DNA of 61,997 nt, filler included, from Platydemus manokwari (lineage: Eukaryota): NCBI GenBank assembly GCA_037951405.1. It is 6 parts of 6 records of this genome, joined end to end, with 100 filler letters (N's around TTAATTAATTAA, not from the genome) between each part and the next. Parts side by side here need not be neighbours in the genome. Positions count along the whole stretch, not along the records: positions 1 to 10,822 come from JBBMOY011103553.1; 5 more parts are not named here. One strand, 5' to 3'. The position numbers and the translations under genes are program-made. The notes under the pieces were generated by a model, which saw only the letters and a program-made list of their open reading frames with translations, ran no database searches and had not been told where the DNA came from. This document shows, in pieces, positions 5,753 through 52,600 of the stretch. How positions within the stretch are numbered: the stretch's first letter is position 1; the number at the start of each line of letters is the position of its first letter.

Positions 5753-6594
5753 ATTTTTATAAATACCTAAAATGTAAGTATTATTACAGATATTTATGCA
5801 TTGTAGATTGTGTTTTTATTGCCGCTGATAGTATAAAAATGAATGATTCGATATCCAGCAACTCGGGTGATTTTTTGGATAGTTATTTTTAGATAATATT
5901 TTAGCAAATAAATAGCATTAACATAAAAACGATCATAATTATATGGAAAGTAATATGTAAACTAAAAATGTAATAAATAATAATAAATAACACAATTATT
6001 AATACAAATAAAATTAAAAATAAAGATATGAAATAAATGATTGATTAAATCATTCTGTAAATCATTCTGAGCAGAATCAAGGGATGTCTTCAGCATTAAT
6101 TTAAAGTCCACAAACTTTCATAACGCAGTTTTCAAAACCAAAGAAAAACAATCCACCTATTCGATTGAAAGTGTTTCCTTAAACCAATTAGATGCAGAGG
6201 AAAAGGATTGGATTTGTCAAGCAGAAAAGAAAGAAAGAAATTTAAGCAATGATATTTGAAAGGTATTTAAATAGAATAATTAACTAATTAAAAACAGTTT
6301 TCAAAATAAATTCATTCAGGAATTAACAGAAAAAATCTGAAAAAAGCGATCATAATGAAATTAAATATAAAAAATTATGGACCATAGCATCAGAACTTGA
6401 TTTAAATTATTGCGATTATGCTTTTAAATTGTAACTAGTTAAGATATTTCATAATCAAATATAATTAAATTGAGTTGATCTTTATTAAAACAAAGTAATG
6501 ACTCTAAAAAGTTAATATAAATTTTATGGAACATTGTAAATATTAAAAATATAAAATAGAAAGATATTAAAGCTTCAAAATCGATAAAATAAAT

Positions 6595-6660
6595 TGCAGC
6601 ACGTGGGTATTTGATCCCAGCACCTATCGCATGCGAAGTGATATAATTGATTATACTATA
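6595..6660 (-). pseudogene. Degenerate, 5'-truncated tRNA-Ala(CGC)-like sequence
   Basis: Minus strand reads TAGTATAATCAATTAT-ATCAC-TTCGCAT-GCGAT-AGGT-GCTGGG-ATCAAATA-CCCAC-GTGCTGC-A. This gives an anticodon stem/loop with CGC, an Ala-type ATC T-loop, U70 and A73. The 5' acceptor strand is absent. Confidence 0.5.
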
Positions 6661-9600
6661 TAATACATTTTAATATTTGGAAGTTCGATTAATCAGGAGA
6701 TCACGAGGCAACATCCTTGACAGGAATCGGATTGGTCCAATCAAGAGGTTTGAACGCGGAATCAAGAAAGGAACTAATCTCAGACTATCCGAAAGAAAGA
6801 TAAAAAAAAATCACAAGAAAGGGTTGACTAATCGACCGAATTCTTCGAAGTTGAACCTTGAAATCCTCGAATGAAACCGTTGTTGAATGAAATAAGTTCA
6901 CCAGCTTTAAATCACTACCGAGAGTTCGAAAGTGGTGACAATCTGTTCAATGTTCAACCCCTGTCTTGCCATGGGCTCGGAGTTGATAAATTTAAATTCT
7001 TCATGAATTCTGGTAACTATAATCTGTTCTGCTTTAGGCTCGAGTATAGTTTTTCCCACAAATCGTCCTTGAATGCATTGAGGCCGACCGGTCTGTAGAC
7101 ATCAGCTGTGGTAATTCAGTCTGAAAGTCACGATCTAACTAAATATCATTGATTGCATTCTTTGTTTAAGTCTCTTGATTGAGGTCAAAGTGGGACATTG
7201 ATCATCCCAAAAGACCACAGCATGGATTGCCAGATCTTGCTCATCGTCATCTGTTCTGGCAGAGGACTCAAAGAACGATGAGAGTGGTATATCATCTCCT
7301 GTTTTGCATTAAAGCCGGAGATGATACTGTTTTCGGTCACTGGAATTTACATAGGTGGCTGGTGAGTTTGACTACTGCCTTCTGTTTTGCCGACTCTCGA
7401 AGACGAAGTATGGAATTTCCTCTGATTTGTAGGTGGTCTTACCCATTCTTCATGTTAAGAAGCACTCTCGTTTGGTGGTGATGCCAGATTCGAGCAGACT
7501 GTCGAATATTTGAGGCAAAGAGAAACTTGAGTGACTTGGTGATGTTTTCCCCGATATCCCAAGCACTTTGAGTACATTGAAAGGTTTCTGTGAAACTAAG
7601 CCCAAAGATCCCACTACATTTATATGAATAGTAACAGCACAATGGAGATTTTACTGTTTCATCATACCTATCAGCGGAGCATAATGGGCAAAGTTCCTCT
7701 CATTGCTCTTAACCATGCGGGCATTTTTTTGTCTACCAGGAATAATCGTCGATCCATCCTGTCCTTTATGGATAAATCAACTCAAAGTTTCGATACAGTG
7801 TCACACCCTTTAAGATATGACACTGTTTCATTTACATTTACCATAACATCTGGTAAATTAAGAAACTGATGAACCAGTCTCAGACAGTCATCATGTATTT
7901 GAACGACAAGAGTCAAGCATGGCACACATGACTGTAACACATGTCCCAGCATCTTTACATCAACATAACATCAACGACATCTACGTCTCAGTGGATCTTT
8001 TTTGCAGACGGTAGCGTTCAAAGGCAACCGGTTAAACCTAGCACGGTGTATAAATCGCCAAGCAAAACCTGTAATTTGACCATTTCTCACAATTTTTTAA
8101 AATTTTACATTCTTGCATATGACTATTCCAAAAAAATTAGATTTATTATTTTGAAGCCATGTAAGTAAATATGATTCCGCAAGTGCTTGGTGAAGAATTG
8201 GAATTCTTGCAAATGGACTGGTTCAACAGTACCTTTTAATCATCTCAATACATTGCGTAACGAATTAATTAGACCATGAAAACTGATTCATGAAGCTTGG
8301 ATGAGTCTCATCCTGATTATATGCTAAAGCTTAAGATCATCGATATTGATCAGTTTAAAAACCAGAATAATCTGTTGTACTGACCAGGACCTAAATGCGT
8401 TCTGTTTGAATAGAGATAGCATGTCTCGGAATTAGTCGGAGGACATAAAATCTTCCTCATCACTCCTCTGAAACAAGAAGTCAATCTGTCTCATATAACA
8501 AACTTCTTGAATCCCTTGGGTTCTCTTAAAGAACACACTGATTTCTCTAATTCGAAAACCAAAGACCAGAGTTGGGAATAGAATGCTTTTAATCGCATGT
8601 ATCTTATAATCACCAAGCAAGTCAAAACCTGCAACACAATGCATATTTCTCAGAAATTTCTTGAGTGTCTATTTTTACCCAATGGGGACTCCTAGATATT
8701 GATAAAACTCTCAAGGACATAGTTACGAATTTACTGTAGGTTTATATTTATCTCCTTCGAACTGTCATTCATAATAGGAAGAGAAATATATGCACGTTAT
8801 CGTTGCTGGAACACAAAATTGCATTTAATTGCTAAGTTTGAAACAATGTCCAATAAAAACTGCAAATCATCAACCGATCTGGACACTAAAAGAATATCAT
8901 ATGCATATGCAACTACTGGAACATTTTTACAAAATTTTATAAGATACTACATTAGCCGAGTCAATTTCAACCAACAGTGAGTTCATGAAAATTGCTAAAA
9001 GAAGCATGGAAAAGGGGCATCCGTGCTTTAGTATCAATGAACTTGTAATAAGTAGAGACGTTTGTTTAGATATCTTTGATGATCGCTATGATATCATCGG
9101 TGATACAGTACTCCTCTATAATTTTGAAAATCAATTGGTGAGCCACGCTTAAGAAAGCGATTCGAATATCGATAAAGGCCATCGCAACTGGTTGTAGCGT
9201 ACGATTGTATTCCTTAAGGATTTCGGTCAAGAGTGCATTGTGTTCAATACAACCTTCAAATTCCATCCCCATTTTGCCCGGGGCTCAATATATTACTCTT
9301 TCTAACAACCGGTCAGGAAAATGCCCATTAACAATTTATAGCTTGAATTTGAAAGAGCTATAGGTCTCCATTTGGAAATCTATTTATAATCAGATTTATC
9401 TGACTTTGGAATCAAGAACCTTCTAAATTATCTCCACCAATCAGGAAATGTGTTGTATCCTATGATCTTGTTAAGAGTACCAGCCAATAATTCCAATTTA
9501 GGATCCACCTTTTCAAGGGAGATTAATTCACAAAATCAGGCAAAGGACTACAGATACCTAGAGTCTTGAATTTAGTCACAACTTAATCTGATTAGATCGA

Positions 9601-9760
9601 GCTCAAGTGTAACATCACTCTTGACAGGTATTCGAAATTTTCAGAAAGAACATATCAAATGAATCGTCGGTATAAGCTGAGCAAATCCTTTCCATGCTAG
9701 TTCCACAAACTCTCTTCATAACAATCTTCTCAACCGTACGTTTTGGCATGGTGTTCAACA
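6661..9760 (-). mobile_element. Decayed, 5'-truncated non-LTR retrotransposon of the R2/NeSL group (RT + CCHC + RLE), copy 1
   Basis: Minus-strand motifs in the expected order: WRPIA (~9365), FEGCIEHNALL and AFIDIRIAFLSVAH (9066-9272), KHGCPFSMLL (~9010), VAYAYDILL (mutated YADD, ~8900), YQYLGVP (~8695), CR*C...HVLQSC (~7950), HDDCLRLVH, ASNIRQSARIWHHH (~7490). Many stops and frameshifts. Confidence 0.9.
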
Positions 9761-9782
9761 TTATATATATGTAAAATTTATT

Positions 9783-10822
9783 ATAATACATAAAAGTTTT
9801 AATCGTAGTGGAAGTTCGACCAGTCATGAGAATGTGGGTTGCCTGACCCAAGGCAGTGCACTTACTTAGAATGAGCTTGTCCAATGGATGGTTATGAGCT
9901 CAATTGCTAGGAGGGAACTGATCCCCAACTAATCGAACAGAAGGATAAAAAAAAGGGTGAAGACTAGACTGGTCGACCGGCTACTCAGAAGTTGGATTGA
10001 GTTACATACTGGGTTCGATATGCCTGAATTCATCACTGGTTCAAGTTCTATATTCCAATATTCTGTCTAGACTTGAGAGCTCTTGAATTTCCAAATTCTG
10101 ATGGTCGGCTGTCCGGATTCTAGCTAGGCATTAAATCCTATTTTAACGTTCTCACCTATGAATTTAAAATCATACGGAGAACATATGTATTATTAAAATA
10201 CAACCTGATATTTGTTGTGCATTTATAAACACATGGCTTTATGGGTGTTAAACCAAAACCATAATGAAATTGGGTTTTACCTCTAATTGGTAGATTTGAC
10301 TCTTCTTTCATATTGATTAGCACCCCCGTTTGATGGTGATGCCGGATCCGAGCGGACTGCCTAATGTTCGAAGCAGACATGAGTTTGATAAGAATCTTCA
10401 TATTTGTATCCGTTAGACCAAGCACTTTTAGGACATTCAATATCTTTTGTGGGACTGATCCTAGTGAACCAACAACTATGGTGTGTACAGTGACATTATA
10501 GTTAGGTTTATTTTTTTTACCAGATCGCACAGTGGGGCATAATGGGTCAGATTCCTTTCATCTGCTTGCACTATTTGTTTTTCCGTATCCAGTGGACATT
10601 TAATGTCTACAAGAAAGATTCGTTTATCTGAGCAGTTCTCAATATAGAGATCCACTCTGAGTTTCGCAACAGTGTCATGTCCTTCAAGATATGGCACTGT
10701 TTCATTTACATTTACCATAAGATCAGGAGAGTTTATAAACTCGTGGACTAGCCTCAAACACTCATCATGCCGTTGTGTAATCAGGGTCATACCTGGAATA
10801 CATGATTGCAGTACATGGCTTA
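9783..10822 (-). mobile_element. 3' part of a related RLE non-LTR retrotransposon, copy 2, cut by the contig end
   Basis: SHVLQSC...QRHDECL...KLRVDLYI...LVDIKCPLD...HYAPL...IVVGSLG...ARIRHHH (ORFs 10476-10790 and 10156-10530, offset at a homopolymer near 10511-10518). Its 3' region 9783-10005 is homologous to 6661-6860. Confidence 0.9.
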
Positions 10823-10922
10823 NNNNNNNNNNNNNNNNNNNNNNNNNNNNNNNNNNNNNNNNNNNNTTAATTAATTAANNNNNNNNNNNNNNNNNNNNNN
10901 NNNNNNNNNNNNNNNNNNNNNN
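10823..10922. other. Artificial assembly spacer N44-TTAATTAATTAA-N44 (also 20054-20153, 30764-30863, 43559-43658, 52939-53038)
   Basis: Identical 100-bp construct occurs five times; the 12-mer places stop codons in all six frames. Confidence 0.97.
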
Positions 10923-12397
10923 AATTGTACAAGATTTTCTTTAATAAACACTCAATTGTTCTAAAAAAATTCCGGTTTTTAAGTTATAGACCCAATAATG
11001 AAGATTTAAATTATTAATTTAAATCGATATTTCCGTTATTTTTATTTTCAATAACCTGTCAAATTCAGCTGTTTTTTGTGGATTTCAATTATAAATGTTT
11101 AATTAAATTAATTACTCCCTAAATTTTTAAATTCATCTATTTATTAATAAAATTTCAAATAACGAAAATCTAAATTTTACATTTCTGTATTCATTTAAAA
11201 ATCAAAAAAAATATTTCTTTTGCTACAATCTTTCCTTTTTTCCAATATTTATTTCTCTCATTTTCTCAAAAACAATTGCATTATGCTTTTATAAAACAAT
11301 TTGGAACCTTTTTCTTATTTTGACATACGAAGCGACAATTACTCTACATAATTGCAATTATAATTCAATTTGCAACATGCTACCAATTTGTCTATATTGT
11401 ATATTACTTGAACTTGAATTGTATTTAATTTTTGTTGAGTCATATATAATCATATATAAAATTATTACAATTGTAATAAAGTAAATATAATATCGATGAT
11501 TTTAACAATTGAAAATATCATTCACTATCAAATAATATTGAACTTTACACTTCAATCTATACTCCACGTATCTAGTGATGATATTTTAATTTTTATATAA
11601 ATTATCAACAAAGGATCAACAAATGTTTTCGTTAAATTAGTGAATAACGAACAATTTAATGGTCTCGAAATGCAACGCTGCTGTAAATATATTATATTAT
11701 TGTCAAATTTTTACATTAATGAATTCTGTCGGTTAGTATTAACATTCAAAACATCACTTTCTATAATGATTATGTTAAATTATTTTGGTTTACATATATA
11801 TTATTAAAAATTTAAAATGTTACGTAGAATTTAATTCTTAATAAAGCTGTGAAATATGTGATTTGGCTGATTAATTATAAATAATAGTAATAATAATAAT
11901 CCAATTACCTCCATTTCACATTTACAAAATTCAGTTAAGCAATCTTCTGTCATTTACTGAAAATTGGAAGACTGGTCACAATTTGTTAATAAAATAATTC
12001 TGATTACTTCTATTTTCTAAAATTTAATTGATTTTATATTGATTACTTCTATATAGTAAATAAAAATGTATTTAATAATGAAAAAAAAATTTGATTACTG
12101 AAATAGTTTGCCAATTAAATTAAGGTGGTGGCTTTCTGGAAGACTTGAAATTATATTTGAAATTTTTATCTTCTGAATATTTACTTATATTATATAATTA
12201 ATAAACTTCTTATAAATACTTCATAAAATTAATTCTGTTTACGATATTTGTTTAAAACAGCTTTGATCATGAACCAAGATAAATGAATTTATTTAAATAT
12301 AAATAATTATTTTTTGTAACACATTATTATTTAGTATATTATAAGTTTTAATTTTTTATTAGTGATTATATTTAGTTATTTTAGTCATTTTCTAACG

Positions 12398-31779: not shown

Positions 31780-32170
31780 ATGGTAGCGAAGTTCATTATT
31801 GTTTGAATTCATTGGCTTTGGAGTTTTGATATCAGTTTTAACAATCATATTGAGTTTGATTAGAAATCTTCAGATTATAATCTGATAATTATCGATCAAG
31901 TTAACCCAGTCGAATGTAATTTGATATTCGAATGGATATTTGTCAGTGTAGATTGTCCTTGATGTACAGGTTCATTGTAAAATCAGAAACAGTGTCGCAT
32001 TGGAGAAGGCACAGCTGATTAACACATTGATTGAATCGAGAAATCAATGGACTAATCTCAAACACTCATCATGTCGTTGGACAATGTGAGAGAGATACGG
32101 AACACTTGACTAAAGTGCATGTGTTAATGATTCAAAATCCATGTAACAACACTAGCATCCTCTCATTATG
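31780..32170 (-). mobile_element. Highly decayed third copy of the RLE non-LTR family (CCHC/RLE region)
   Basis: Minus strand HAL*SSVPYLSHIVQRHDECLRLVH. DNA ggactaatctcaaacactcatcatgtcgttg matches 10745-10776. Confidence 0.75.
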
Positions 32171-33349
32171 AAGTCATTTATAAAGATGAGTTCACCATGA
32201 TAAATAAATCATCTAGTATGATTATTAATGAATTCATTATATGTTTTGTGTTTGAATCTCTGACGATTAGAGTATAAGTTTGAATTATTAGCACAAATTC
32301 GAGTCCTTGATGCTTTAATTAACTCAGTGATTTACAAAAACACATCTCAACAAAGTCGTGGTCACTTAATAGCGGTAAATTCATTTCGAGATAGTTAGTC
32401 AAATACCATAGAATTTAAGTTTGATTCTATCTTAAGTATTTTGGTTTCTAAATTTTATGATCATAGATCTTGATTGGTTGCCAATAGCGTTGACGCTTTT
32501 AATAGGCTGATCATTGTAAAGGTTTGTATAATTATATATTGATACAAGCTTGTCGGGGATAGCAAAAGGATATTCTGAGAGTTATTAGAGATTAAATATT
32601 TGCAGTGAAATTTTTCTAATCGAGATAATGTTGTTCATAAAAATGATAATCATACCAATGATATTTATAATAATAATTTTCATTATAAAATAATAATGAT
32701 ATTAGCATTAATAATAATTATTTTATTTATTGTAAATAATAATTATAATCAATAATATAATTATTTAATTTTATATTCAACTATTTTTTCTGACATTCAC
32801 ATTGAGATCCAAAAAGAAATCAGAGCCCATACAACTATTGCATTGAAACTATCTCAAAACTGATGAACAAATTAATTATTCTGGAAATCCATGTTTTCCA
32901 CTGAATGTGTATTTCTAAAGTTTCATTTGATAAAAAAAATCAATACAATGAATACAGAAAAATTAATAATGAAAAATTGTCTTTGGTTTTCAATTGTAAA
33001 TATATTAATTTTTTTATTAACTAGTGGGAAATGTCGAAGTTGATATGATGCATCTCTCCATAGTTGCTATGGTTTTTGGAGTTTATAACGTTTTTGAGGG
33101 TTTTATTGATGAAACATTGACAATCCCAATATTATGTCATCGATACACCGGTTTATACCCGTCAGTATTGAGTCGTATATCGAATTCAATTGATGGATTT
33201 AAACCCAAACATCCTTACCAGTTGTTGATGCATAAAATATATCATAGTTTGCCTGCAATATTGAAAATGATACCAAACAGGTCAAGTATAAAATATAGGA
33301 TTGGAAAATAGAAAATAAAATTTATTTAACTGTCATCCATATCATCTTT

Positions 33350-37589: not shown

Positions 37590-39060
37590 TGGCAACTACA
37601 TCTTTAAAATTAATATGGTTTCGAGAATCTAGAGACTGTAGGACATGCTGTAGTCACAAACTTTCAATAACCAAATTTTTTTTGACTGGAATTCTAGTAA
37701 AACAACTCAATGGATTTGCAATATTAAGTGTAGGTCACCACGAAAAGAGGGCCCACTTAACAATAAAACTAGAAATAGATATTTCCGAAATCTGATATAC
37801 TACAAAGATTCTTGACAAAATATTCTCAAATTCCCAAAATATCCACGTGGTTCAAGGATGAGGTTCGTATCATGCTGTGAAATCAATAGTAGGATAGAAA
37901 ATCCCTCAAAATAACATTACATTGAAACCTCAGGTAACCATACATTACATTATAATTAATAACTCTTGGCATTATATATAATATAGATCAAGACTTTTTA
38001 TTAATTGACGATATTTATAGAATATAAGGCGGACTCTTTGCAAGAAAGACTTGTAAGAATCAGACGCAAAATCAATACCAATTTCGTCATATATGTTCAT
38101 CATAAATTAATTTTATTAAGAGTACAATAAGATGAAAGATAAAAATAAAACTAGATATGAGAACAGAAGATAAATTGGAATAAAATAGGCCTTTAAAAGA
38201 TTGCGAAGAGAATGGCAGAGATCATTAGAGTCTTTTCGATAAGTAATGAAAGACAACTAGATTGATCAAGAATGTCAGCCAAATGAAAATGCAAAGATGT
38301 TCTCATATGGTCGCCAAGACAATAAAATAACCTTGTAAAGATATAAAGCTTTAGATTTAAGGCACACAACATTTCTCTTTCATATGAACATGCCACACAT
38401 CCAAAGGATTTGAGAGGAAACAATTCAGAATTCTACAGGTCGAAATACTTCACTTATGAAAGACTCCATCTAGAGCATTGTTTGTGACTTCAGATTTCTA
38501 AAAATTTTGGACCATCAATTCCGGTCATTCATCATAAAACATCTAACCAACCCGATTATTTACAGATTCAACGAAGCCTCCGATTTATCATGTGCATTCC
38601 TCTGGATATCAGTCAAAATTGACTCTGACAAAAAATCAAGTTCCATAACCTGGTGGACCAAGCCAGGGTTTGCAGCTCGAAAACTCAGGAAGCTTCAAAT
38701 TGGCTGTGAATTCAATCATCATAATGATGAAATTCAATTAAAAGTCACTGTCTTACCGGACAAGACATACTTTTTCTCAGACGATTGCCGTGGCAAAGTC
38801 TCAGATATTCTACACGATTTGGTGTTCATGTCCTTCTTCAATTGAAAAACAAGGTCGATCGGTCCGCTGTTTCCCCCTTCTCATTCATCGCAAAAGTCAT
38901 TAAAGAACGTCCATCTGTCACAGGAAGTTTAGATATTGACCCACAACACGCACAATCACATGCCATACCTTATCAAGGTAAAGAAATCGACATGAAGACT
39001 TGTGCCACCCAGTCAATGCTTTCTAACAAGGAACCCCTAAAGAACCATAAACTCAAAAAC
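37590..39060 (+). mobile_element. Possible decayed LTR-retrotransposon 3' region (integrase traces, then a broken downstream ORF)
   Basis: RDCRTCCSHK resembles the integrase CxxC. SYHA/EINSRIE near 37870-37900 resembles YHPxxNGxxE. GC-elevated broken ORFs follow at 38200-39060. Confidence 0.3.
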
Positions 39061-41623
39061 CGAAATCCAATAAATTATTTAATACTTTCACGATTTCTTT
39101 ATTTGTAATTGGATGGTTTTGTTCTCTTTGTTTTTTATTGTAATGTACATTTTGTTTGCCTATATTTCACATATTGTATTCCCGACGAACATTACTATAT
39201 TCGAGCCACATTTTATGAGCATATTTGAAACACGACTACTGATCTTTCGATAGGAATCATATGATGATAAAAAATACAATATTATATGTAATATAATTTT
39301 TAATTTTGTTAGACATTGATAGATTTTTATATGATGGGATAAATAAATGAACAAATCCAGATAATGATTATTACATGTTTAATCTAGAGAAAAAACACTG
39401 AATTCTAGGAAAATGTTTCATATTCCAAAATAAATCTCGTCAACAGAAATAATGAAGCTAAATAAAATATTATCTGACACAAAAAAAACATCGCATTGAA
39501 ATAACTTAAGTACGAATAAATTGATTATTAACTAATAGAAAGTACAAGAAAAATGATATTTTGAAAAGCTTTATCTTGCTTTACTTAAATCTGAAATAAT
39601 TATTTTACAACCCAATGATAACGTCAATCCTGTAGATTCATAATTCGACTTACAATATGGAGAATTAATCGAAAATAACAGCTTGTAAATTCGTTTTCGT
39701 GTTTAATAAATCCTTTATTTTTCGATAAATTTTATTTTTTAAAAGAATATTAATGATGAGTTTGATTTGTTCATTTTCATTTTTATCGTCATCAAATAGA
39801 CAAATTGATTTCAGTTTTATTCTTTTAAGTACCTCGATTTGATTTTAAAACATTGTTTTCTTTCAATTTGTTTCCGTAACTGTCTCATTTTGTCTCGGCC
39901 TTGACTTTAGAGGTCCAACAAAATAAAATTACGAAAAAATTGATTTATGTTGAACATTGATTTTTGTTTTGAAGATTGAAACAAACGAGACAAGATATTT
40001 TGAAATATTGACGGAAAAGAAAACTAGATAAGTTGAACATTTTCTGAGCCAATTAAAGACAAACTTCAATCAATAACAAAGATAAACTTCGAATAAACGG
40101 CATCATTGATTCGTAGATATCAATATAAATTAAGAAAAAAATCATACTCCATGAGTCATAACATTAGCATTGTGTTAAAAATTGAATCTTTATTTTTCCA
40201 CCAATCAAATTTCAGATGAGGATGTGTGTTGAGATTTAGAATGGCAGTAGAAATTGATTTTATAATGAAAATCTTTGTTTCTGGATAAATATTTTAGACA
40301 ATAAGCCAGCAGTCAGTAATTATCAACATTGAGACAATATTACAATTTTGAGATAAAGAATTGATTCCCATATGGAAATAGAACCAGCTTTCGATATTAG
40401 ATTGCTTGTATTAACAGATTTTAAAATGCAAATGACAGACTAAAATAGGAATTATTCATTAAAACAAAGTAAATTGTTAAAAGTCGATTTCACCATGAAA
40501 ATTTACAGAATAAAGAAAGGTGCTTTCTATCAAGTTTGAGGAAGACTTTTATCAATACAATAAAAACAACAAAATCATAAAAAAATGAACTGATTAATAA
40601 TATTTTCAGCATTTATTTATAGATTTAATTATGCATTTTTCCATTAAAAATCATTTTTAAAATCGGAAATTTCTTAGCATTTTCCGAACATTGTAAAATG
40701 AAAATTTTCGAAAATAGAATAATCAATTATTAGCTTAATAATCACCATAGTGATGTGTATTGTTGTTTGTGTTTTTTCGTCTTAATTTTGTCTTCTCCTT
40801 TGATTTTGGTACTGGTAATGATAATAAACAATAAGGATTACCCGAGCAGACGAAAATCTATCATAATCTATCGCAATTGTTGGACTCTGAACATCAAAGC
40901 AGGTGGAATGGATTCAATCCCACCGTCAAAAGCAGCTTCACTGCATTAATGATTTTAAACTGTCAATACTTGTAAAGTGCATTCACTAATTAATCCAGTT
41001 AAAAATGAATCCGGTGCTATATTTATTTGATAGAAAATTATTAATATTAAATACACAAGCTGAAAAATCGCATTATTTCTCAGCCGCCTCCAAACAGTGA
41101 TATTGAATGACAGTCTTTATGTTGCTTTGATCTTATCATCAAAGATGATTTCTCTGAAATGGTTTCATATCCTCTTAAATTTCAATGACGTAATATATAA
41201 TAAAAAAATCACACCCCATCTTGCCTTTGTTGTTTATTATTTTTTTCTATTTATTAATAGCTATGGTTTATTAAATTATTTATTATTGTTGATACGGTAT
41301 AACTCAAGGTTTTGATATGTCTAATATATATACATACAGCTTCCTCTAACTCCCAACATAGTATTTAATTGATTAGATTAGCTCATATTTTTCACGCTTT
41401 ATATACTTGACATATACAAAAGAAAAGATTGTTGTTGAATTTTATTATGCTTAATTTGTTATTCTTCTATTTTTAAAAAGGCAATCTATTGATAGATGAA
41501 AATATTTTTTTCATTGTTAGGTATTGAGAATTTATATAAGTGTATTTTGGTATGCTGCATCAAATAATTTTATATTCGATTTTATGTCTAGATCAGCTGA
41601 AATTTCTGTTTAAATCAAGATAA

Positions 41624-42200
41624 TGGGTCCTTTGACCTACTTTCTTGAAAATGAAGTTTCAGATATGAGATAATTTTGTAACGTAATTTTATATGTAATT
41701 GTGATGATTGATTTATCAGTATAATTCAGTTAATATTTCATTTTTAGAATGTCTAATATGGACAAAACATAATTTTAAAACCAAATTCCTATTCTAATCA
41801 CAACACTTCTATACGATTATTTGAGTTTTTAAATTTAAATTTTATAATTATGAATCGGGTTAGTTAATTACAGATATGTTCAATAATATCATTGGTTATT
41901 TTTATAAAATAATTGTAAAAATTGAGAATATCTCTCAATTTGCTTCTAATGTTAAAAAGGGGTCCTGGCTAATTTTCAATAAATTGCAATTCGATCTACT
42001 TTTTTATTTTTTCCAAAAATCAAATTTTAGGAGATTTCTAAGCTATGGTGTATTTAATATCTGATTTCTTAAGTACTTAAATAAAAAGTTCAAAATGTTT
42101 TTCAATAACTTAATTAAATAAACTATATAGAATTTCGCAATACACTGAACAAATTTAAAATCTCATTTTAGGACCCTTTTTTTAACTTTTGCCAAAATTT
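41624..42200 (+). repeat. Dispersed repeat, copy B
   Basis: Collinear similarity to 23690-24260. Confidence 0.85.
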
Positions 42201-45200
42201 TTGTGTAATGAATTTTAAAATTTTTATTTTTCATTATCATTAGTTTATATTGAAATTCGTGACTCAGTACATTATCACTGCCCGTGTTTATGTGTGTATA
42301 AACTATAAAATTAAGTTGTGAAATAAAACTTTTACCCGTGGTCAAACAATATCTCGGATCGTGCTTTTATCAAATGAAAGTTATTTAAAATTTAAAGTAC
42401 CTCTGTCTAATAAAAGAACAATCGACCCAGTTCATGACAAAGTATAAGATCAACTAGAATCTTGAAAATTATTATAAAACGGTCGATTAAAATTTACTTG
42501 TAGATGTGTATATACATGTTGGTGTGTGTGTGTGTCTAAATTAGTGACTTACATATTCTCAAACATTTGTAACTAAATAATGATCATTCTTTTTACTCGT
42601 GCATTCGAACAAGAAAGAAATGGAAGAATTTTGATTAGTGAATAATTTTCGGTGCAATTCATCTTCGTGTGTTTTTAAGCCTGCAATCAATAATTATATT
42701 TTTACTAATTTAATTTACGCCATCATTAAGTGATTGTAAAATAGGATATGTACTAATTTGTTTCATTGGTTAAGTGTTTAAAACGAAACAAAACTACGTT
42801 GACAATCAATCATAAAATCTAATTCAGTTTGGGTTCTGGAACCTATCAAATGAGAGTAGAAATTGATACAATAATTTATTGATTAACAATGGATCAGGAT
42901 AATCCAGTAACTGGATCAATATATTTGATAAACTGTACTGATCAAGTAGTTTAAAAATTCAGCTATTTATCGAGTAAATCTACCACAGTGAAATAATATT
43001 GAGTTCCGATATGAGAATTTTTATGTGGTGGGATGATTTTGAGAAAATCAATACTAGATAGCAGTACTTTCAAATCAAAATACCAGTGTATTTACAGAAA
43101 AATAATTTTCGAAATACGATAACATTTATTGTTATCAAAATTTAATCGATAATCAATTTATTTTCAACTTATCAAGGACGAAAATGAAAACTAAAATCAA
43201 TTCTCTTTCACGAAGTTCTACTGACGAAAGTAATGCAAACATACATCCAGAGCAAATATTTACCGAAAATTTTTAACTGAAATCAGTTACGATAATATTT
43301 GGCATTTCCATATAAAATTGACAGCTTAATTATCAGAGTTTTGCATTCATGTTGGAATTCGAATTTTCTTCACTTAAACTATTTATTATCAAACTATTTT
43401 TCCCATGTTCAATATAACTGAGATTGGAACTGACTTAACTGTCAAAAACAATCCACATATTTGATGTGACATTTACCGGATTTCGTTTGCGGTACTGATT
43501 GCGTGGTGCTCTACGGTGGGAATATGTGTGAAGACTTCATAAATATTTCAATGGTTTTNNNNNNNNNNNNNNNNNNNNNNNNNNNNNNNNNNNNNNNNNN
43601 NNTTAATTAATTAANNNNNNNNNNNNNNNNNNNNNNNNNNNNNNNNNNNNNNNNNNNNTTACTATGCAAAATGTACTTTAAATAAATAAATATTTTTCAA
43701 AAAAAACCGAAATTTTAAGGTTATACACCTAATAGGTAATATAATTTTGAAACTGATAGTTAGGTTAATTAAATATATATCACTATTCCCACACCTATTA
43801 TCTTCACACAATAAGGTTGTGCGAGGTGAAGGAACAACGAAATAAGGTAGATTACACATGTGGCCTGACTCAATAGCTCATAGAGACTGATTATGACAAT
43901 AGTGGTATTAAATAGGATTAAGCTTAGTAAAATAATTACTATCAAAATAAAACCCAACATTATCAACCCATTTTATGAATTAGAAATAATTATCCCCGAT
44001 AACGATTCGTTAATAGATATTGATAATTCATATTAAAAAGTGGAAAAATAATGATAATGTTTCTAAAAATAGAAATATAATTGATTAGCAGAAATAGCCC
44101 CCTAGAATATATAAAACAGACATACAATATCCATTAAATAATTTTGCCCATTAAACAAAAATTTCCATAAAAAAGAATATTATTATTCCATTTATAGAAA
44201 AGGCATTCAAACACAGTAAAAAGATACCCAGCTAAAAATCAATTGTTGAATTTATCAGCATTCGTAAAACATAAGCTATTTCAAATATTCCTTGTAAAGT
44301 TCCATGTTGTATACTGGAAGATTTCAACTCGATAGCTTTGATAAATATTCTACGCAACAACCGGCAAATATCGGTTAAGTAAATCTAACATAATTTTAAA
44401 ATCATCATAAAGCTATCCTTGTCAAACCTATTTATAGAGCAAATAGCTCATTTGCCTTCAATTGATTACGCTGGTGAGGTTTCATAAATCACTAACTCTC
44501 AAAATAATCTATTGTTTAGTAATTGAGGCCATATGTAAAGTATCAAAATCATTTTATTACAAATCATAGGATTCAATAAGGTTTTGATTTAACTCTCGTT
44601 TTTGATAAAATATAAGACACCTCTTCATGTAGGGATTTTTCAATCATTATTCTCATCCCATTACCTTCTCAGTGGTATTAGAGTCATTAACACAGTTTGG
44701 TATATAAAACACTGAATAATTTCGAGATCCTTTCCTGCATCCAAGTTGCAGAATGCTCGATGTAAAGATGCAATAATCAATTTTAAGTTAAACTACTACT
44801 TAAAGGTTATCAGAGCTCATGAGACTGATAAAACGTAAGTACTATGAACAAAATAAATTGTAATAACAAGATTAATCGCGATAAAACAATAATAGGACCA
44901 CCAAAATTAACACATTAATTTTATAAGTTTTGTTTCTCAAATCTTCTATTACGAATTAGTCAATAAATATTGCTAGACGAATTGAAAATTCAATAAAACA
45001 GAAAACGTTTCATTATCGAATTAAAGATTTGAACAAATCTCGATGTAATCAAACAAAATAATAGCTGTAATACTCCAATACCACCGCTGAGTGAAAAATG
45101 TTAAAAATATTTGCCAATCATCATTTATAATAATTCTTACGAATAAGTTTCTTGTATTTGGAGCATTCTTTGGAAACAGAAAGAATGATAAGAAATATAA

Positions 45201-45331: not shown

Positions 45332-46261
45332 TCAGACATTGGCACAGCAAATAGGGCAAATAGGGTCGCACAAACTGATAATCAGTTCTCTGGTACGCAT
45401 TTCGAAGCATTGGTTGCATATTCTATGAGCACAAGCATAAAATTGAAAATAATTGCTATTATTGGAAACATGACTAAAACAAATTACACATTTTCTTTCA
45501 CTATCAATCAATAAAGTTGGAAATAGCTTCACATATAAACCGTCATTTACAATCGGTAAATATATAAAAATAAATTTCATATACAAAATGGTACGGTTCA
45601 ATGAACTCGGTGTGTGAAATCTCCTCGATTTTGTTTCATTTATTTTGGATAATCTTTCAAGATCTACAGTGTAACCAACATCTTCATCTGATTTAATGAT
45701 ATTGGTCAAATCAGCAATGATTATGTAATAGTGTAATAAAAACCGCAACAACGCTGTTTGGCCTGTGGTTTGCAAGGCTTCCAAATCATCCACTGCTTCA
45801 TAAAATGCGTTCCTATCGATGGTTTTATGCTGGAGGTTATTACCAAATACTTTTCTGACACCCTGCAAATGTACATTTGCCTTGATTATGCTCATCATTC
45901 GTTCATCTCTTTCAATAATCGATATGTAAACATTGATATTTTGGAGAGAAATTTCGAAATATTCTCTCATCATCAATTTGTGTTTGTTTAATGTGTTTTG
46001 GAATTTTTGTTGATAAATTTCATTTAATAATGTCTCAGATTTAATTTCTTTCACTATTCGGTTTGATTCATCAACAAAAACGATGTCGTGGATAGTTGTC
46101 ATGTCTACCGGACATTCAAGTTTGGTATCAATTGACATATACAAACATTCGTCGCAAAACACATGAAATTTGTAGCATTGCTTGAAACCGGAATAACATC
46201 CAACATGGCAATCATCATAACATATTGAACAGATTCTCTCATTTGTATTTGAATCCATCAT
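45332..46261 (-). CDS. Intronless double-RING-finger protein (309 aa from ATG 46261), putative E3 ubiquitin ligase
   Basis: N-terminal C3HC4: CSIC...CYKFHVFCDEC...CPVD. C-terminal C3HC4: CVIC...CAHRICNQC...CPIC. The linker of about 200 aa looks helical, and the frame is uninterrupted. Confidence 0.85.
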   Translation of the reverse strand: MMDSNTNERICSICYDDCHVGCYSGFKQCYKFHVFCDECLYMSIDTKLECPVDMTTIHDIVFVDESNRIVKEIKSETLLNEIYQQKFQNTLNKHKLMMREYFEISLQNINVYISIIERDERMMSIIKANVHLQGVRKVFGNNLQHKTIDRNAFYEAVDDLEALQTTGQTALLRFLLHYYIIIADLTNIIKSDEDVGYTVDLERLSKINETKSRRFHTPSSLNRTILYMKFIFIYLPIVNDGLYVKLFPTLLIDSERKCVICFSHVSNNSNYFQFYACAHRICNQCFEMRTRELIISLCDPICPICCANV

Positions 46262-46769
46262 TAATAAATTAAATTTATAATGAAAATATTTAAACAATTA
46301 TTTTCACTTTTTCAAAATACAGAAAGTTGTATTATAATTCATTAAAATATTATTTTTATTAAAATTTTAATTTTAAATTGTTTTTTATATTAAATAGTAA
46401 TGACAAATATTTTATTCATCTTGTTTAAAAAATATTCTATTTGGTTGAAGTTTTAAATTAAAATTCTAACATTATATAACAATTTAAATATTCAATATAA
46501 ATGGAGTTTATAAAATAAATTCAAAATAAAATTTTTAATAATAATAATTAAAAAATACTCATTTTAAATATTAGTGAATATTTAAATTTTCTTATTGCTA
46601 TATGAAAGTACAACAATCGCTCTTAATACATAGAGTTATTTTATACCTATTGTTTTGTCGAAATAACAAAATGGTTGTCATGATACTTGAAATAATAAAT
46701 TTAAAAAATAAATGTCAATAAATTTAATTATTTTTAGTTAAAAATCTATATTAGCTAACCCGTGACATT

Positions 46770-47105
46770 TTTAATAATATAAAATAACTTATTTTTATTA
46801 AATTATTGGAAAAATTAAGAGCGTATCTCAATTTGTTTTTAATGTTAAAAATGTTCCTCACTAATTTTCAATAAATTAGAATTCGATCATCTTTGATCCG
46901 TTTTCAAATAATCAAAAATTTTATATGATATTTAAGCTCTAGTCTATTTAATATTTGATTTTTTAACAAGTAAAATCTTCTCGAGTACTTAAATAAAAAA
47001 TTCAAAATATTTTAAAAAAATATAATTAAATAGACTTTATAGATTTTTGCAATGCACGAACCAAATTAAAAATATTATTTTAGAACCATTTTTCTTAACT
47101 TTAGC
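46770..47105 (+). repeat. Dispersed repeat, partial copy C
   Basis: ctaattttcaataaattagaattcgatc...gagtacttaaataaaaaattcaaaat matches copies A and B. Confidence 0.8.
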
Positions 47106-49929
47106 CATAATAATTGTTCCTAAAATATGTTCACAACAGTAACTTCAAAGCATTTATTAAATAGTGTTTTCATTTTTTTAATAAATACCTTGTTTTTTAA
47201 AATAATGAATTTGAGCTAATTGTTCCAAATCCAGGGCTGTTAGATCGAGAATTAATTAGTGCAAAGAAACATTGTTTCTTTATTAATATCAATGACATAT
47301 TTCGGTGGATAGAACACCGTTCTTATTTGAACTACATCTTACAAGATACTTCGTAATATATGCCCTAATAAAAAATTTTAAAATAAATAAGTATAAAAAG
47401 AAGGTCATCTTGTCATCTCCATCACCTGTGTTGGAGTGTTTCAGCATGCTTATTCTCTCAACGAGTTATTGGTAGAAAATTAAAGAAATCCCCAATATCA
47501 CGGTAACAATCGAATTAGATTCCAAAATAAAAGTCCAGGATACATTCCATTGTAGACGAATCTTAAATAAAAATCGAATAAAAATCAACTATACAAGTAT
47601 ATATATGAAAGTAATTGAGTGGTAATAATTATTGCAATTAGGTGAAAATTTTGCATGCTCGATTGCATATAGAGAAATTCTAAGTGTTTTCTTTAAATTA
47701 TTTTTATTCATAAACGAATGAGGAACGATAAATTATATTTTGTTTATCAGTTATGACCATGAATTTGAATTTTTAACCATTATTTTTATATATAGTGATG
47801 ATATTTATATATATGGTTAGTATGTCTGTTTCTTTACCGTGTTTCTTTACTCTGTATATGTTTTGCCAATTTGATTTATTAAAACTTTATGTTTAATTAA
47901 ATTTTAAGTAAAGGTTTAGTTTTATTTTCATTTCTATATTGAGCTATTTATAAGTGATGTCCCAAAATAGTTATATATAACGCTATAAATATTATAGACC
48001 AAATAAACCATTTCTTCACTTTTTAATTCTTCGTCCGAATACAGTTGAATTAATCTGAAGAATCTAAGATCGACAAATGGATCGAATACCCGAGAGAGAT
48101 TTGTTCATTTGTTTGACCATTAGAGAGAAACAGTCATAAGCAGTTTTATAACAAGTATTGTTACCTCTTTCATTTCCTTGGTATTATTTGATCGTACACC
48201 ATGTTTCGGTGTACCAAATACCATTCAGAATTGTTTTACAAAAAGTTTTATTTACGATTTCTAAAATCGTCATTTGTTCGAAATATTTATGAGTCAATAA
48301 AGCCATGTTCTTTCATTGATTATAAGTGTTCGAATAATTGTTATTTTTATAGGATAATGACTCGATAATGTAAAAATATAACTCATAATCTTATAGTTAT
48401 CTAGTTTAAATTAAAGAAAATTAATCTTGGTGCGATTACAACTAAAATATCTGACTTAATCTCCAAACAAAAGAAACAGAAGCCCACGGTACCAAACACA
48501 ATCAGTTATGATAATTAAATTTTCGTCTAAATTTAAGAAAGGGGATTCTCAAATAAAATTTTAAATATGTTGAGTGCAGTGCAAATGTCGGGATCAACCA
48601 CATAACATATTATATTATAAAACATCAACTTATACATTACCACCATTGCCACACATCATTATCATGATAATTGTGACCATTGCAATCTAACGAAGCATTC
48701 TCTAAAATGTATAAAGAATCAATAGCACAGTATTTTCTTAATTATAGATGGGGATAACCAAATCAAGAACAAGATCAGTTATTCCAATTCGACAATAATT
48801 AGATGATAACAATTAGACATTTGATCAGAGATATTGATTATCAAGTGAATCTGGTCAACAACTTTGTATTGATTTGGTTTGAAATTGACAGAAATTGACA
48901 ATGCTATTTGGATTGTTATAATGGTCGATGATATTAATGTGAAATCATTTTGACAACATATTATTGTTTATTTGAATTATTTGTTTGTTTATTATTTTAT
49001 TTTATTAGAGGGAAAGAGGAGAATTTCGACAAACATATGATGGATTCCTACTAGCTTGTGCTAAGTAGTATTTAGTATGACAATTTAAAGATAATGGAAC
49101 TAGTAATAACTCGTTGAACGATCAGTAAATTAAGATAATATGATTAAAATCAGAAGTATGGAGATTCCACCAATGATCTGATCTAAATCAGAACAGTAGG
49201 TTGCGTGTAATTTGGATAAAATAGTATAGATAAATAATAAAGCAATGAATGATAATAGGAATATTTTTATTATAACACAAATTAACGATTGCATAATGCG
49301 ACTAGATTAACAGAAATGAAGTGTTGTGTCTTGAAGATGAGAACAACCGTCGTAGGGACGTAGATGCCGTCGTACTTCGGAAAATAAACTAATGAATTGA
49401 TTGATTTTAGTTTACAAGCTCTTATGGCTTTGAAATTAATAATTTAGCCAAGGAAATCTCAACGAGCTTTGCGAGGAGATTAGTAAAGTTAAAATAATGA
49501 TATTTATCATTGGCTTAGATAAATTTAACGAATTGAGCGATTGAATAGATTATTGGATAAGGTGATCCCAAGCTTAAGGTGATGAATATTCCTAAGCTTC
49601 TGTGTGTCAATGGATGAGAAGATTCTGCTGGATTGAGGCTAATCCTGATTCTATAAGATTAATATTCCAATTAACTTCTCCCAAAATAGCTATGATAATT
49701 CTAGATAGATGAGGTTTTTTCCAGAATTAATTGATTGGTGAAGAGTGCCTTGAGCGTTGAAGATTGGATGCAAAATTTACGCGCTTGAAATTTCTCTCAG
49801 AAATTAATGTGAAAATTCTACATTTAGACTGGGTTTATATACCCAGATTTTTTGTGGGAGTGATGATTAATTTTTTCCCATTAATTTTATTTATTTACTT
49901 TCAATGGTTACTAATGCTTTCACCTTAGT

Positions 49930-51059: not shown

Positions 51060-51382
51060 TCATATAAAGATATTATTATTTAATACAAAACTCTTTATAG
51101 TTTATTTAATTATATTCTTTAAAAACGTTTTGAATTTTTTATTTTAGTTGTTTGAAATCAAATATTAAATTACCGGTGCTTTAAATTCTTCTAAAATTTG
51201 ATTTTTTTAAAAAGAATCAAAGTCGGTCGAATTGCAATTTATTGAAAATTAACGAGGACCCCTTTTTACCATTAGAAACAGATTGATAGATACTCCAAAT
51301 TCTTACAATTATTTGGTAAAAATAGGCAATGACATTATTAAAAAAATATCTGGAGTTAACTAACTCGATTTATAATTATAAA
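51060..51382 (-). repeat. Dispersed repeat, partial inverted copy D, interrupted at about 51383
   Basis: atcaaagtcggtcgaattgcaatttattgaaaattaacgaggaccc is the reverse complement of the family core. Confidence 0.8.
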
Positions 51383-52600
51383 TGTTGGATATGCACACTA
51401 TATAAAATTGTACAAACACTCCCTAAATACTCCCTATAAATATATAAAAAATAACTGAACAAACGTTCCCTAAACACTCCCTATAAATATATGTAAAAAA
51501 TATGTACAAGCACTGCACTCCATCTACAAACATAAACATCACTGCACTCCATTTACAAACACAAACAATATTTGAGTGTGGACTGATCTGCTGTCGAGAG
51601 AACTGTTTTAACTGATTAGTTAATAAACATTAGTTTTTATCCTTTACTTTTACGCTCGTAATAAACTTTAGTGTTTCATCAGTTTGATCTTTTATTTTTA
51701 TGCGAGTAATAAACTTTATATTATCATTTTTATATGTTGTATTTTGCTTATGAATCTTTTATTATTATTCTTGTTTTATGTCAAAATTCGTATTTTATTA
51801 ATAAATCTTTTATTATTATTATGAATCTTTTATCATTTTTTATTTTATGTCAAAATCCGGTGGATAATAAAGATACGGAGAGAAATAAAAATAAATAAGT
51901 GATAAATGGTGAAATTAAACAAATGATAAAAAATAACGGCAAATAAATAATGATTAATATTGAGTTAATTATAACAAATAACATAGTAAATAGTAAAAAG
52001 ATATGAAGAAAAATAATAAGAAATATAATAAATATAACTATAATGGACAATAAAAATCAGATAGAATCATTAATTATTCACACGAAACGTGTGAAAAAAT
52101 CAGCAAAAAGTGATTGGCATGAAGAGCCGTGTAAGTGGGTCGATTCGATCAGTGAATATAAATAACGGCGCTGATCAGAGCACTACGCACAATATTAATT
52201 ACAACACGAAGCAGCATAACACTGAATACCAATTGAAACCAAGGCCAATAGCGCATAAATATTGATTATTACATTGATATAGTTCGGAATTGTCAAAATC
52301 GGTGATATTCAGCCAGACGATTTATCATCACAGCAGAGGAATTTTAGAGAAAGCGACATCGAAATGTGTTGAGGAAATTTATAGCATCGCTAGATTTTCG
52401 CCAATAAATAATCATCAACCTTGTTAGGGGTCGTGCCATATCGGAAGTTCATACAGCGCCGCCGCAATCACAGTAAGGCCCAAAGAGACAACGCATTCTC
52501 TGTGCTTCAATCTGAAAGTTAACATTAAATTTACTTTCCGACATCTTGGTCTTCAATACCAGGTGTTGAAACCCCTTTAGGACTGGTGACTTTAGATTAA
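51383..52600. mobile_element. Possible LTR-like insertion with internal direct duplications and decayed adjacent sequence
   Basis: Starts TGTT exactly where repeat copy D stops. Duplicated ctccctataaatatat and cactgcactccat.tacaaaca, and repeated gtaataaac. No matching second LTR in the window. Confidence 0.35.

What the first reader, a model, noticed from the sequence alone, without database searches (positions are those of the whole stretch)
6595..10822. Candidate tRNA-Ala-targeting R2/NeSL-group retrotransposon
Seen: on the minus strand, the 3' end of copy 1 (...TCGAACTTCCAAATATTAAAATGTATTA) runs almost directly into a tRNA-Ala(CGC)-like sequence. That sequence keeps roughly position 8 to the discriminator but lacks the 5' acceptor strand. 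The element end is defined independently by homology with copy 2, which stops at the same TAATACA motif. Established: RLE-encoding non-LTR elements often insert site-specifically into multicopy RNA genes (R2 in 28S rDNA, NeSL in spliced-leader genes, Utopia in U2, some in tRNA genes). Inference: this family cleaves tRNA-Ala genes, or a tRNA-Ala-derived SINE, near position 7-8, which may be an undescribed target specificity. Only one junction supports this.
Basis: partly seen in the sequence, partly recalled or inferred. Interest (0 to 1): 0.72.

Follow-up and report, generated by a model that had tools for sequence, protein, structure and literature searches.

The report
Old retrotransposon abutting alanine-tRNA half
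A broken jumping gene ends exactly where the back half of an alanine transfer-RNA sequence begins, likely because it inserted into that tRNA; similar flatworm elements are already known to land in other tRNA genes, and here the case rests on a single junction.

Summary
Partly confirmed. Two tandem minus-strand copies of an RLE non-LTR retrotransposon are real; their intact relatives encode Ulp1 protease, RT, CCHC and RLE (NeSL-clade build). The tRNA-Ala piece is real (own covariance model 26 bits; Rfam none), and its T-arm, acceptor and trailer occur in a contig of about 195 times single-copy depth. Positions 8-26 score like random AT-rich DNA, and 6664-6645 is the element's own tail (16 of 20 identical to copy 2). 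The junction lies at tRNA position about 27-29 (6642-6640), not 7-8. Copy 2's flank is copy 1's coding region, so 1 of 2 visible 3' ends touches a tRNA. No second junction was recovered. tRNA-targeting RLE elements are published (LIN15_SM Arg, LIN25_SM Glu, NeSL-1_TV Pro; PMC4640811), and this scan noted such elements in other genomes. Best reading (0.6): tRNA-directed insertion at a new tRNA type and site. Ala-specific, family-wide targeting is unproven.

The parts
9769..10822 (-). Copy 2: 3' part of a younger RLE non-LTR element (end of CCHC knuckle, RLE, 3' UTR, AT-rich tail); 5' part cut off by a contig linker
   Evidence: tblastn to full-length relatives, 0 stops and one frameshift near 10515; phmmer 31 hits with E<=0.001; family depth about 1800-2400 at its lowest listed places vs about 13 single-copy; 3' end inferred from the contig break at 9798 and the alignment
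10291..10820 (-). Copy 2 coding remnant: His-Cys end of CCHC; RLE with PD, D and D-x-K-C-P
6641..9768 (-). Copy 1: older, decayed, 5'-incomplete element (pre-RT region, RT, CCHC, RLE, 3' UTR, tail)
   Evidence: tblastn HSPs 9520-7454 with many stops and frameshifts; weak profile match up to about 9765 (E 0.002, 3 frames); confirmed by a single-copy contig 7910-9798 with 0 differences
8400..9630 (-). Copy 1 reverse-transcriptase remnant (WRPIAL, EGCIEH, AYAYDI for YADD, YQYLGVP)
   Evidence: Pfam RVT_1 only E 0.037 on one 72-aa piece
7454..8198 (-). Copy 1 CCHC knuckle and RLE remnant
6641..6664 (-).
   Evidence: 16 of 20 identical, ungapped, to 9794-9775 (AT-rich null 0.005); MAFFT; fold z about 0; GC 12% over 6643-6668
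6595..6642 (-). tRNA-Ala(CGC)-derived 3' part, positions 27-73, with one extra A in the T loop; 6642-6641 (AT) could belong to either side
   Evidence: 34 of 47 to consensus, 37 of 47 to the best single gene; 1-nt gap at 6611 against the high-depth contigs
6577..6594 (-). 18-nt T-rich trailer shared with the high-copy repeat; sharing ends at a T4 run
   Evidence: contigs of depth about 2600 over 6579-6628 and 6577 to about 6607, loose end beyond 6577; that continuation is absent from the window
10823..10922 (.). Assembly linker (44 N, 12 nt, 44 N) that hides copy 2's 5' part and 5' flank

Best explanation
This is a decayed, 5'-incomplete RLE non-LTR retrotransposon of NeSL-clade build whose 3' tail joins tRNA-Ala at position about 27-29, likely because its endonuclease nicked a tRNA-Ala gene (or its abundant derivative) there and primed reverse transcription from the nick. 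SHOWN: element class and domains; tail end at about 6641; tRNA homology from 6642; a high-copy parent for the tRNA 3' part; a younger sister copy joined to copy 1's coding region. INFERRED: target-primed insertion at the base of the anticodon stem, sense to the tRNA, perhaps with 2 nt (AT) of microhomology. It happened either at an orphan tRNA-Ala copy at this locus, or in a source copy inside the tRNA repeat, whose 66-nt 3' flank was then carried along (3' transduction); the latter would explain why sharing with the repeat stops 18 nt past the tRNA. INFERRED, weaker: copy 2 arrived later at copy 1's 5' side, by re-use of the same upstream-recognised site or by nesting. Specificity is probably loose, as for LIN25_SM.
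For: The tail end and the tRNA start were placed by separate tests and meet within 2 nt: copy 2 alignment and contig break versus covariance model and profile. Orientation and anatomy (element tail, then the 3' part of a tRNA in sense, then a T-rich terminator) match LIN15_SM, whose flank starts at position 24, and LIN25_SM, position 5 (PMC4640811 S6 Fig; positions counted by me). Copy 2's tail holds the 14-mer TATTATAATAAATT seen in the LIN24_SM tail of that figure (14 of 14 by eye); copy 1 has 12 of 14. Intact relatives are Ulp1-RT proteins of about 1500 aa, and both copies nest among them (SH-aLRT 95-100). A tRNA-like stretch occurs once in 62 kb, so a random landing inside it is improbable (inference). 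R2Bm recognises its target mainly upstream of the cut (PMC10499050, passages), so a young-old-tRNA order is compatible with one site used twice.
Against: One junction only. Copy 2's flank is not tRNA (1 of 2 ends). Two more relics of the clade lie in the window with no tRNA near them, so the clade is dispersed here. In run X1 no multi-copy contig covers 6630-6700 (depth 13-25). One extra single-copy contig covers only about 6641-6675 and does not enter the tRNA (read from bin depths; AT-rich, may be chance). The parent's 5' half was never seen, so an intact tRNA-Ala(CGC) gene is not shown. Rfam gives no support. My tRNA-Ala model was built from loci fetched with a pattern taken from this window, which inflates its score; on the 21 columns outside the pattern the match is only 12 of 21 to consensus (15 of 21 best). 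A full cloverleaf can still be drawn over 6667-6594 (null 0.0008, thresholds set after the fact).
Confidence: 0.6

Rival explanations
1. Chance neighbourhood: a non-specific element landed in, or was joined by a later deletion to, a stray fragment of an abundant tRNA-Ala-derived repeat.
For: Four relics of the clade in 62 kb, only one beside a tRNA piece; copy 2 is not tRNA-flanked; no second junction; the window copy leaves the repeat 18 nt past the tRNA. Non-specific R2-group families exist (R2NS-1_SMed; PMC5035012 passages).
Against: The tail is complete and abuts the tRNA within 2 nt, in the orientation known for tRNA-targeting relatives; a deletion would not be expected to stop exactly at the tail end. 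tRNA-like DNA is rare in the window.
Confidence: 0.18
2. Template-jump chimera: the element's RT began on a pre-tRNA-Ala transcript at its U-tail, stalled near position 27 (a modified G26 is a known RT stop; recalled, not tested), jumped to the 3' end of the element RNA, and the product integrated at an unrelated site. No DNA targeting of tRNA genes is needed.
For: Sharing with the repeat ends at a T4 run (6580-6577), as a Pol III transcript would; the junction sits at 26/27-28/29; the locus holds no other tRNA. R2Bm shows low-level template jumping in vitro (PMC10499050 passage).
Against: Needs initiation on a non-self RNA; position 37 is A, not the G expected from an edited mature tRNA-Ala (inference, weak); T runs are common in this DNA.
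Confidence: 0.12
3. One reading: the element ends at TGTATTA (6661) and a degenerate tRNA runs from position 8, or is even whole from 6667.
For: A cloverleaf can be drawn with D stem 4 of 4 and acceptor 6 of 7 (null 0.0008 of 50000 AT-rich places); 6658-6650 resembles the start of an A box (by eye); TGTATTATA is shared with copy 2.
Against: Needs an 8-nt gap where the other register needs 1; positions 1-26 add nothing to the model score (24.2 vs 26.0 bits); no G18G19; GC 12% vs 52%; copy 2's own tail also gives acceptor >=6 of 7 with D >=3 at 2 of 15 end points; the strand does not fold into a cloverleaf (z 0.44); copy 1 would lack the AATAAA-bearing tail.
Confidence: 0.08

Closest known systems
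LIN15_SM (Schmidtea mediterranea; R5/LIN lineage, NeSL clade; PMC4640811 text section 10 and S6 Fig parts 1-2 of 3)
   Same: RLE non-LTR element; AT-rich tail joined in sense to the 3' part of a tRNA gene near the D-stem/anticodon-stem hinge, followed by a T-rich terminator.
   Different: Targets tRNA-Arg isoacceptors with the flank starting at position 24, shown on many copies; here tRNA-Ala, position about 27-29, one decayed copy.
LIN25_SM and LIN24_SM (same paper and figure)
   Same: Very similar terminal tail (AATAAA-bearing AT-rich end; a 14-mer shared with LIN24_SM); LIN25_SM hits tRNA-Glu plus other tRNA-like and unrelated sites, i.e. loose specificity.
   Different: LIN25_SM's flank starts at tRNA position 5; LIN24_SM targets 28S rDNA and has a poly-T tail. 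No protein comparison with either was possible.
Nematode NeSL and Utopia-1_TSP (PMC4640811 section 9 passage)
   Same: Single ORF with N-terminal Ulp1-like protease, RT, zinc knuckle and RLE (in the intact relatives).
   Different: Targets are spliced-leader and U2 genes; Caenorhabditis Ulp1-RT rows fall in a different part of my tree.
R2 (R2Bm, R2Tg)
   Same: RT plus CCHC plus RLE; avian R2 proteins are the nearest solved relatives of P0105 (E 1e-47); model for target-primed insertion.
   Different: R2 has N-terminal zinc fingers and Myb and targets 28S rDNA; the relatives here carry Ulp1 instead.
Dada DNA transposons (PMC3706591, PMC8869645; search listing only)
   Same: Target multicopy small-RNA genes; the term tRNA-Ala occurs 4 and 5 times in these papers.
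   Different: DNA transposons, no RT; passages not read.

Membership tests
RLE-encoding (R2-group) non-LTR retrotransposon | RT followed by CCHC knuckle and C-terminal PD-(D/E)xK endonuclease in one ORF | tested here: met
   Colinear tblastn HSPs of copy 1 to aa 725-1502 of P0073; motifs aligned. Copy 1 is broken; copy 2 shows only the C-terminal part.
RLE-encoding (R2-group) non-LTR retrotransposon | 5'-variable, 3'-fixed end with 3' UTR and no LTR | tested here: met
   Homologous 3' UTRs and tails; copy 1 starts inside its ORF.
NeSL clade (broad, incl. R5/LIN, Utopia) | N-terminal Ulp1-like protease or zinc fingers, no Myb | tested here: inconclusive
   The N-terminus is missing in both copies; 8 of the 8 intact rows of their nearest clade or next to it that I scanned and that exceed 1340 aa (P0073, 78, 84, 86, 103, 105, 106, 107) carry Peptidase_C48 above cut-off.
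NeSL clade (broad, incl. R5/LIN, Utopia) | RT phylogeny groups with NeSL-1 and R5 | tested here: inconclusive
   Tree of 56 rows: both copies sister (100), nested in an unnamed Ulp1-RT clade (95-100), apart from Caenorhabditis and arthropod/turtle rows; midpoint root, no Repbase references, no R2/R4/HERO outgroup; 8 weak or fused hits left out.
R5/LIN lineage of flatworms | RT clusters with R5 and LIN families | not testable with these tools
   No named R5/LIN protein among 58 + 31 hits; only the tail resemblance.
R5/LIN lineage of flatworms | Host is a flatworm | tested here: inconclusive
   AT-rich animal DNA; the best named hits of the FAAH-like gene are vertebrate and mollusc at 35-38%, the two best hits (59%, 43%) are unnamed.
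Target-specific (tRNA) retrotransposon | Several independent copies share one target position | tested here: inconclusive
   1 of 2 visible 3' ends at a tRNA; read-laying could not show the upstream neighbours of the high-depth tRNA contig.
R2 proper | 28S rDNA flank | tested here: not met
   No rRNA match in the window at E<=1; flanks are a tRNA piece and copy 1.
tRNA-Ala gene | Complete cloverleaf with A and B boxes | tested here: not met
   Only positions 27-73 match; ARAGORN 0 at default.
tRNA-derived SINE | tRNA head plus a shared unrelated body in many dispersed copies | tested here: inconclusive
   The parent has a shared downstream sequence at depth about 2600; this fits a tRNA array spacer or a SINE body; dispersal could not be tested.

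The most novel reading that the evidence does not exclude
An undescribed Ulp1-RT-RLE lineage is site-specific for tRNA-Ala at the base of the anticodon stem (position 27-29), and the young copy-2 family occupies most of the roughly 200 tRNA-Ala repeats: its base depth (about 1800-2400) is close to that of the tRNA 3'-half contig (2600), and the young-old-tRNA order records repeated use of one site by upstream recognition.
Probability: 0.2. Interest if true: 0.55.

Novelty: new member of a known kind. Interest (0 to 1): 0.33.

Why it matters
tRNA-gene targeting by RLE retrotransposons is known, at positions 5 (Glu), 24 (Arg) and in the T loop (Pro). A confirmed tRNA-Ala site at 27-29 would add one more natural specificity. 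That helps to map how RLE proteins change targets, and such proteins are being mined as gene-insertion tools. tRNA-Ala does not occur in the 10 supplements of the Utopia paper; searches listed no tRNA-Ala-targeting RLE element (titles and abstract starts only; the library lacks Repbase and most subscription papers, and I did not find the Fell et al. survey in it). With one decayed junction the gain is modest.

Tried and rejected
No whole genome is held, so the flank census could not be run. Rfam: four scans, no tRNA. The search for homologous proteins with copy 2's 114-aa piece found nothing; the HMMER scan did. Viral contigs held no relative. No RNA holder listed. Two read-layings on run X1 (contigs only): one search showed 15 of 74 joints and 6 of 352 loose ends, none linking copy 2's tail to the tRNA; one search showed 8 of 15 pieces and 6 of 16 loose ends. 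Relatives of copy 1's 3' UTR diverge at 6720-6746, before the tail. The repeat's downstream continuation is not in the window. The third relic (32186-31906) has no 3' UTR above null (scores 33-35 vs 34-36), so it gives no junction. Folding gave no cloverleaf and no significant tail structure. Earlier findings by sequence: nothing. No literature search on template jumping was completed. Rejected: R2 proper (no 28S flank); cleavage at position 7-8; duplication as the origin of the tandem (copies only 66% alike).
Full report
Setting. The window is AT-rich animal DNA (GC 22-36%) made of contigs joined by N linkers. A FAAH-like amidase gene lies at 12335-14095. No whole genome is held. One public run, X1, holds 81% of the region's words; it may be the source of this DNA and is not independent support.

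The elements. Six-frame translation shows RT, CCHC and RLE remnants on the minus strand. An HMMER scan with copy 2's 100-aa piece found 31 proteins at E<=0.001. The full-length ones are single ORFs of about 1350-1540 aa with Ulp1 protease and RT domains. They map colinearly on copy 1 from 9520 to 7454 and on copy 2 from 10820 to 10291. Copy 1 has many stops and frameshifts; copy 2 has 0 stops and one frameshift in its two HSPs, and its family has depth in the thousands against about 13 for single-copy DNA. So copy 2 is the younger. The copies are 66% alike in DNA. In a tree of 56 rows they are sisters inside an unnamed Ulp1-RT clade, apart from Caenorhabditis and arthropod or turtle rows. No Repbase reference was available, so NeSL-clade build is shown but R5/LIN membership is not.

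The tRNA piece. Rfam and default ARAGORN see nothing. A pattern scan of metagenomes returned 118 loci, in which ARAGORN called 117 tRNA-Ala among 147 tRNAs. A model from 38 of the 66 distinct genes gives one significant window hit, 24.2 bits, E 9e-5, and 26.0 bits for positions 27-73 alone. The pattern came from the window, so these scores lean high; outside the pattern the match is 12 of 21 columns. Independent of that, run X1 holds a 49-nt contig of depth 2600 over 6579-6628, with 3 other letters and a 1-nt gap at 6611 that restores a 7-nt T loop, and further contigs of similar depth down to 6577, where the repeat and the window part ways. The piece therefore comes from a tRNA-Ala gene family or tRNA-Ala-derived repeat of roughly 195 times single-copy depth. 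Depth is only a rough guide to copy number. The parent's 5' half and anticodon were not seen.

Where the junction is. Four results point to 6641 instead. (1) 6664-6645 is 16 of 20 identical, without gaps, to copy 2's 9794-9775, at 22 versus 23 nt from the shared TCGAACTTCCA anchor; AT-rich places reach this in 0.5% of 20000 draws. Two aligners chose this register unaided. (2) The single-copy contig over copy 2's flank stops at 9798. With 31-letter words this means that other copies share letters down to about 9769 (inference; chance sharing could move the true end up to about 6 nt, and a heterozygous site could also break a contig). (3) Positions 8-26 score no better against real Ala D arms than 80% of 1500 random AT-rich places, and GC falls from 52% to 12% at 6642/6643. 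(4) The tail motif matches published LIN tails. Against this, a full cloverleaf can be drawn over 6667-6594. Both tails fold, weakly, into a hairpin ending at 9769 and 6641, which would account for the apparent D stem. I place the junction between tRNA positions 26/27 and 28/29.

Is it targeting? For: a complete tail abuts the tRNA within 2 nt, in the orientation shown for LIN15_SM (flank from position 24) and LIN25_SM (position 5) in PMC4640811 (section 10, passages, S6 Fig parts 1-2 of 3). The tandem order does not exclude targeting, because R2Bm reads its site mainly upstream of the cut (PMC10499050 passages); whether this lineage does so is untested. The similar depths of the copy-2 family and the tRNA piece are a hint only.

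Mechanism. Most likely (0.6): RLE nick and target-primed reverse transcription at tRNA-Ala position about 27-29, here or in a source copy whose flank was carried along.

Novelty. tRNA-gene targeting by NeSL-related elements is published for Arg, Glu and Pro. This scan's unchecked notes report such elements in other genomes, and a Ulp1-bearing LINE front end in this genome; I did not test them and do not count them as support. tRNA-Ala is absent from the Utopia paper's 10 supplements and no tRNA-Ala-targeting RLE element showed in the listings of searches; Repbase and subscription papers are not covered. Verdict: new member of a known kind, possibly with a new target; interest 0.33.

Noticed in passing
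window 31906-32186 (-): Third decayed relic of the same clade (CCHC/RLE piece; tblastn E 9e-6; DNA score 85 vs null 37 +/- 4); no recognisable 3' UTR or tRNA nearby.
   Followed up: partly
window 38474-38836 (+): Fourth relic, post-RT region, E 2e-9 to P0110.
   Followed up: partly
window 12335-14095 (+): 586-codon open frame for a FAAH-like amidase (Pfam Amidase E 1.6e-83), apparently without introns; the closest hits (59%, 43%) are unnamed.
   Followed up: partly
window 45332-46297 (-): 321-codon open frame with two weak RING-finger matches (E 0.001, below cut-off).
   Followed up: no
window 23675-24246, 24450-24796, 41607-42204, 46718-47117, 51086-51383: Dispersed repeat of up to about 600 bp, 66-82% alike, in both orientations; two copies face each other at 23.7-24.8 kb.
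   Followed up: no
window 10823-10922 and four more places: Contigs are joined by 44 N + 12 nt + 44 N linkers, so adjacency across them is not established.
   Followed up: yes
window 7190-7450 (-): Copy 1's 3' UTR is about 800 nt against about 520 nt after the last homologous codon in copy 2; 7127-7600 has relatives at depth 130-400 in run X1, so part of it may be a separate repeat.
   Followed up: no
L029:271-343 region: A metagenome tRNA-Ala copy whose 5' part is replaced by AT-rich sequence up to about position 20 (listing); possibly another insertion junction or pseudogene.
   Followed up: no
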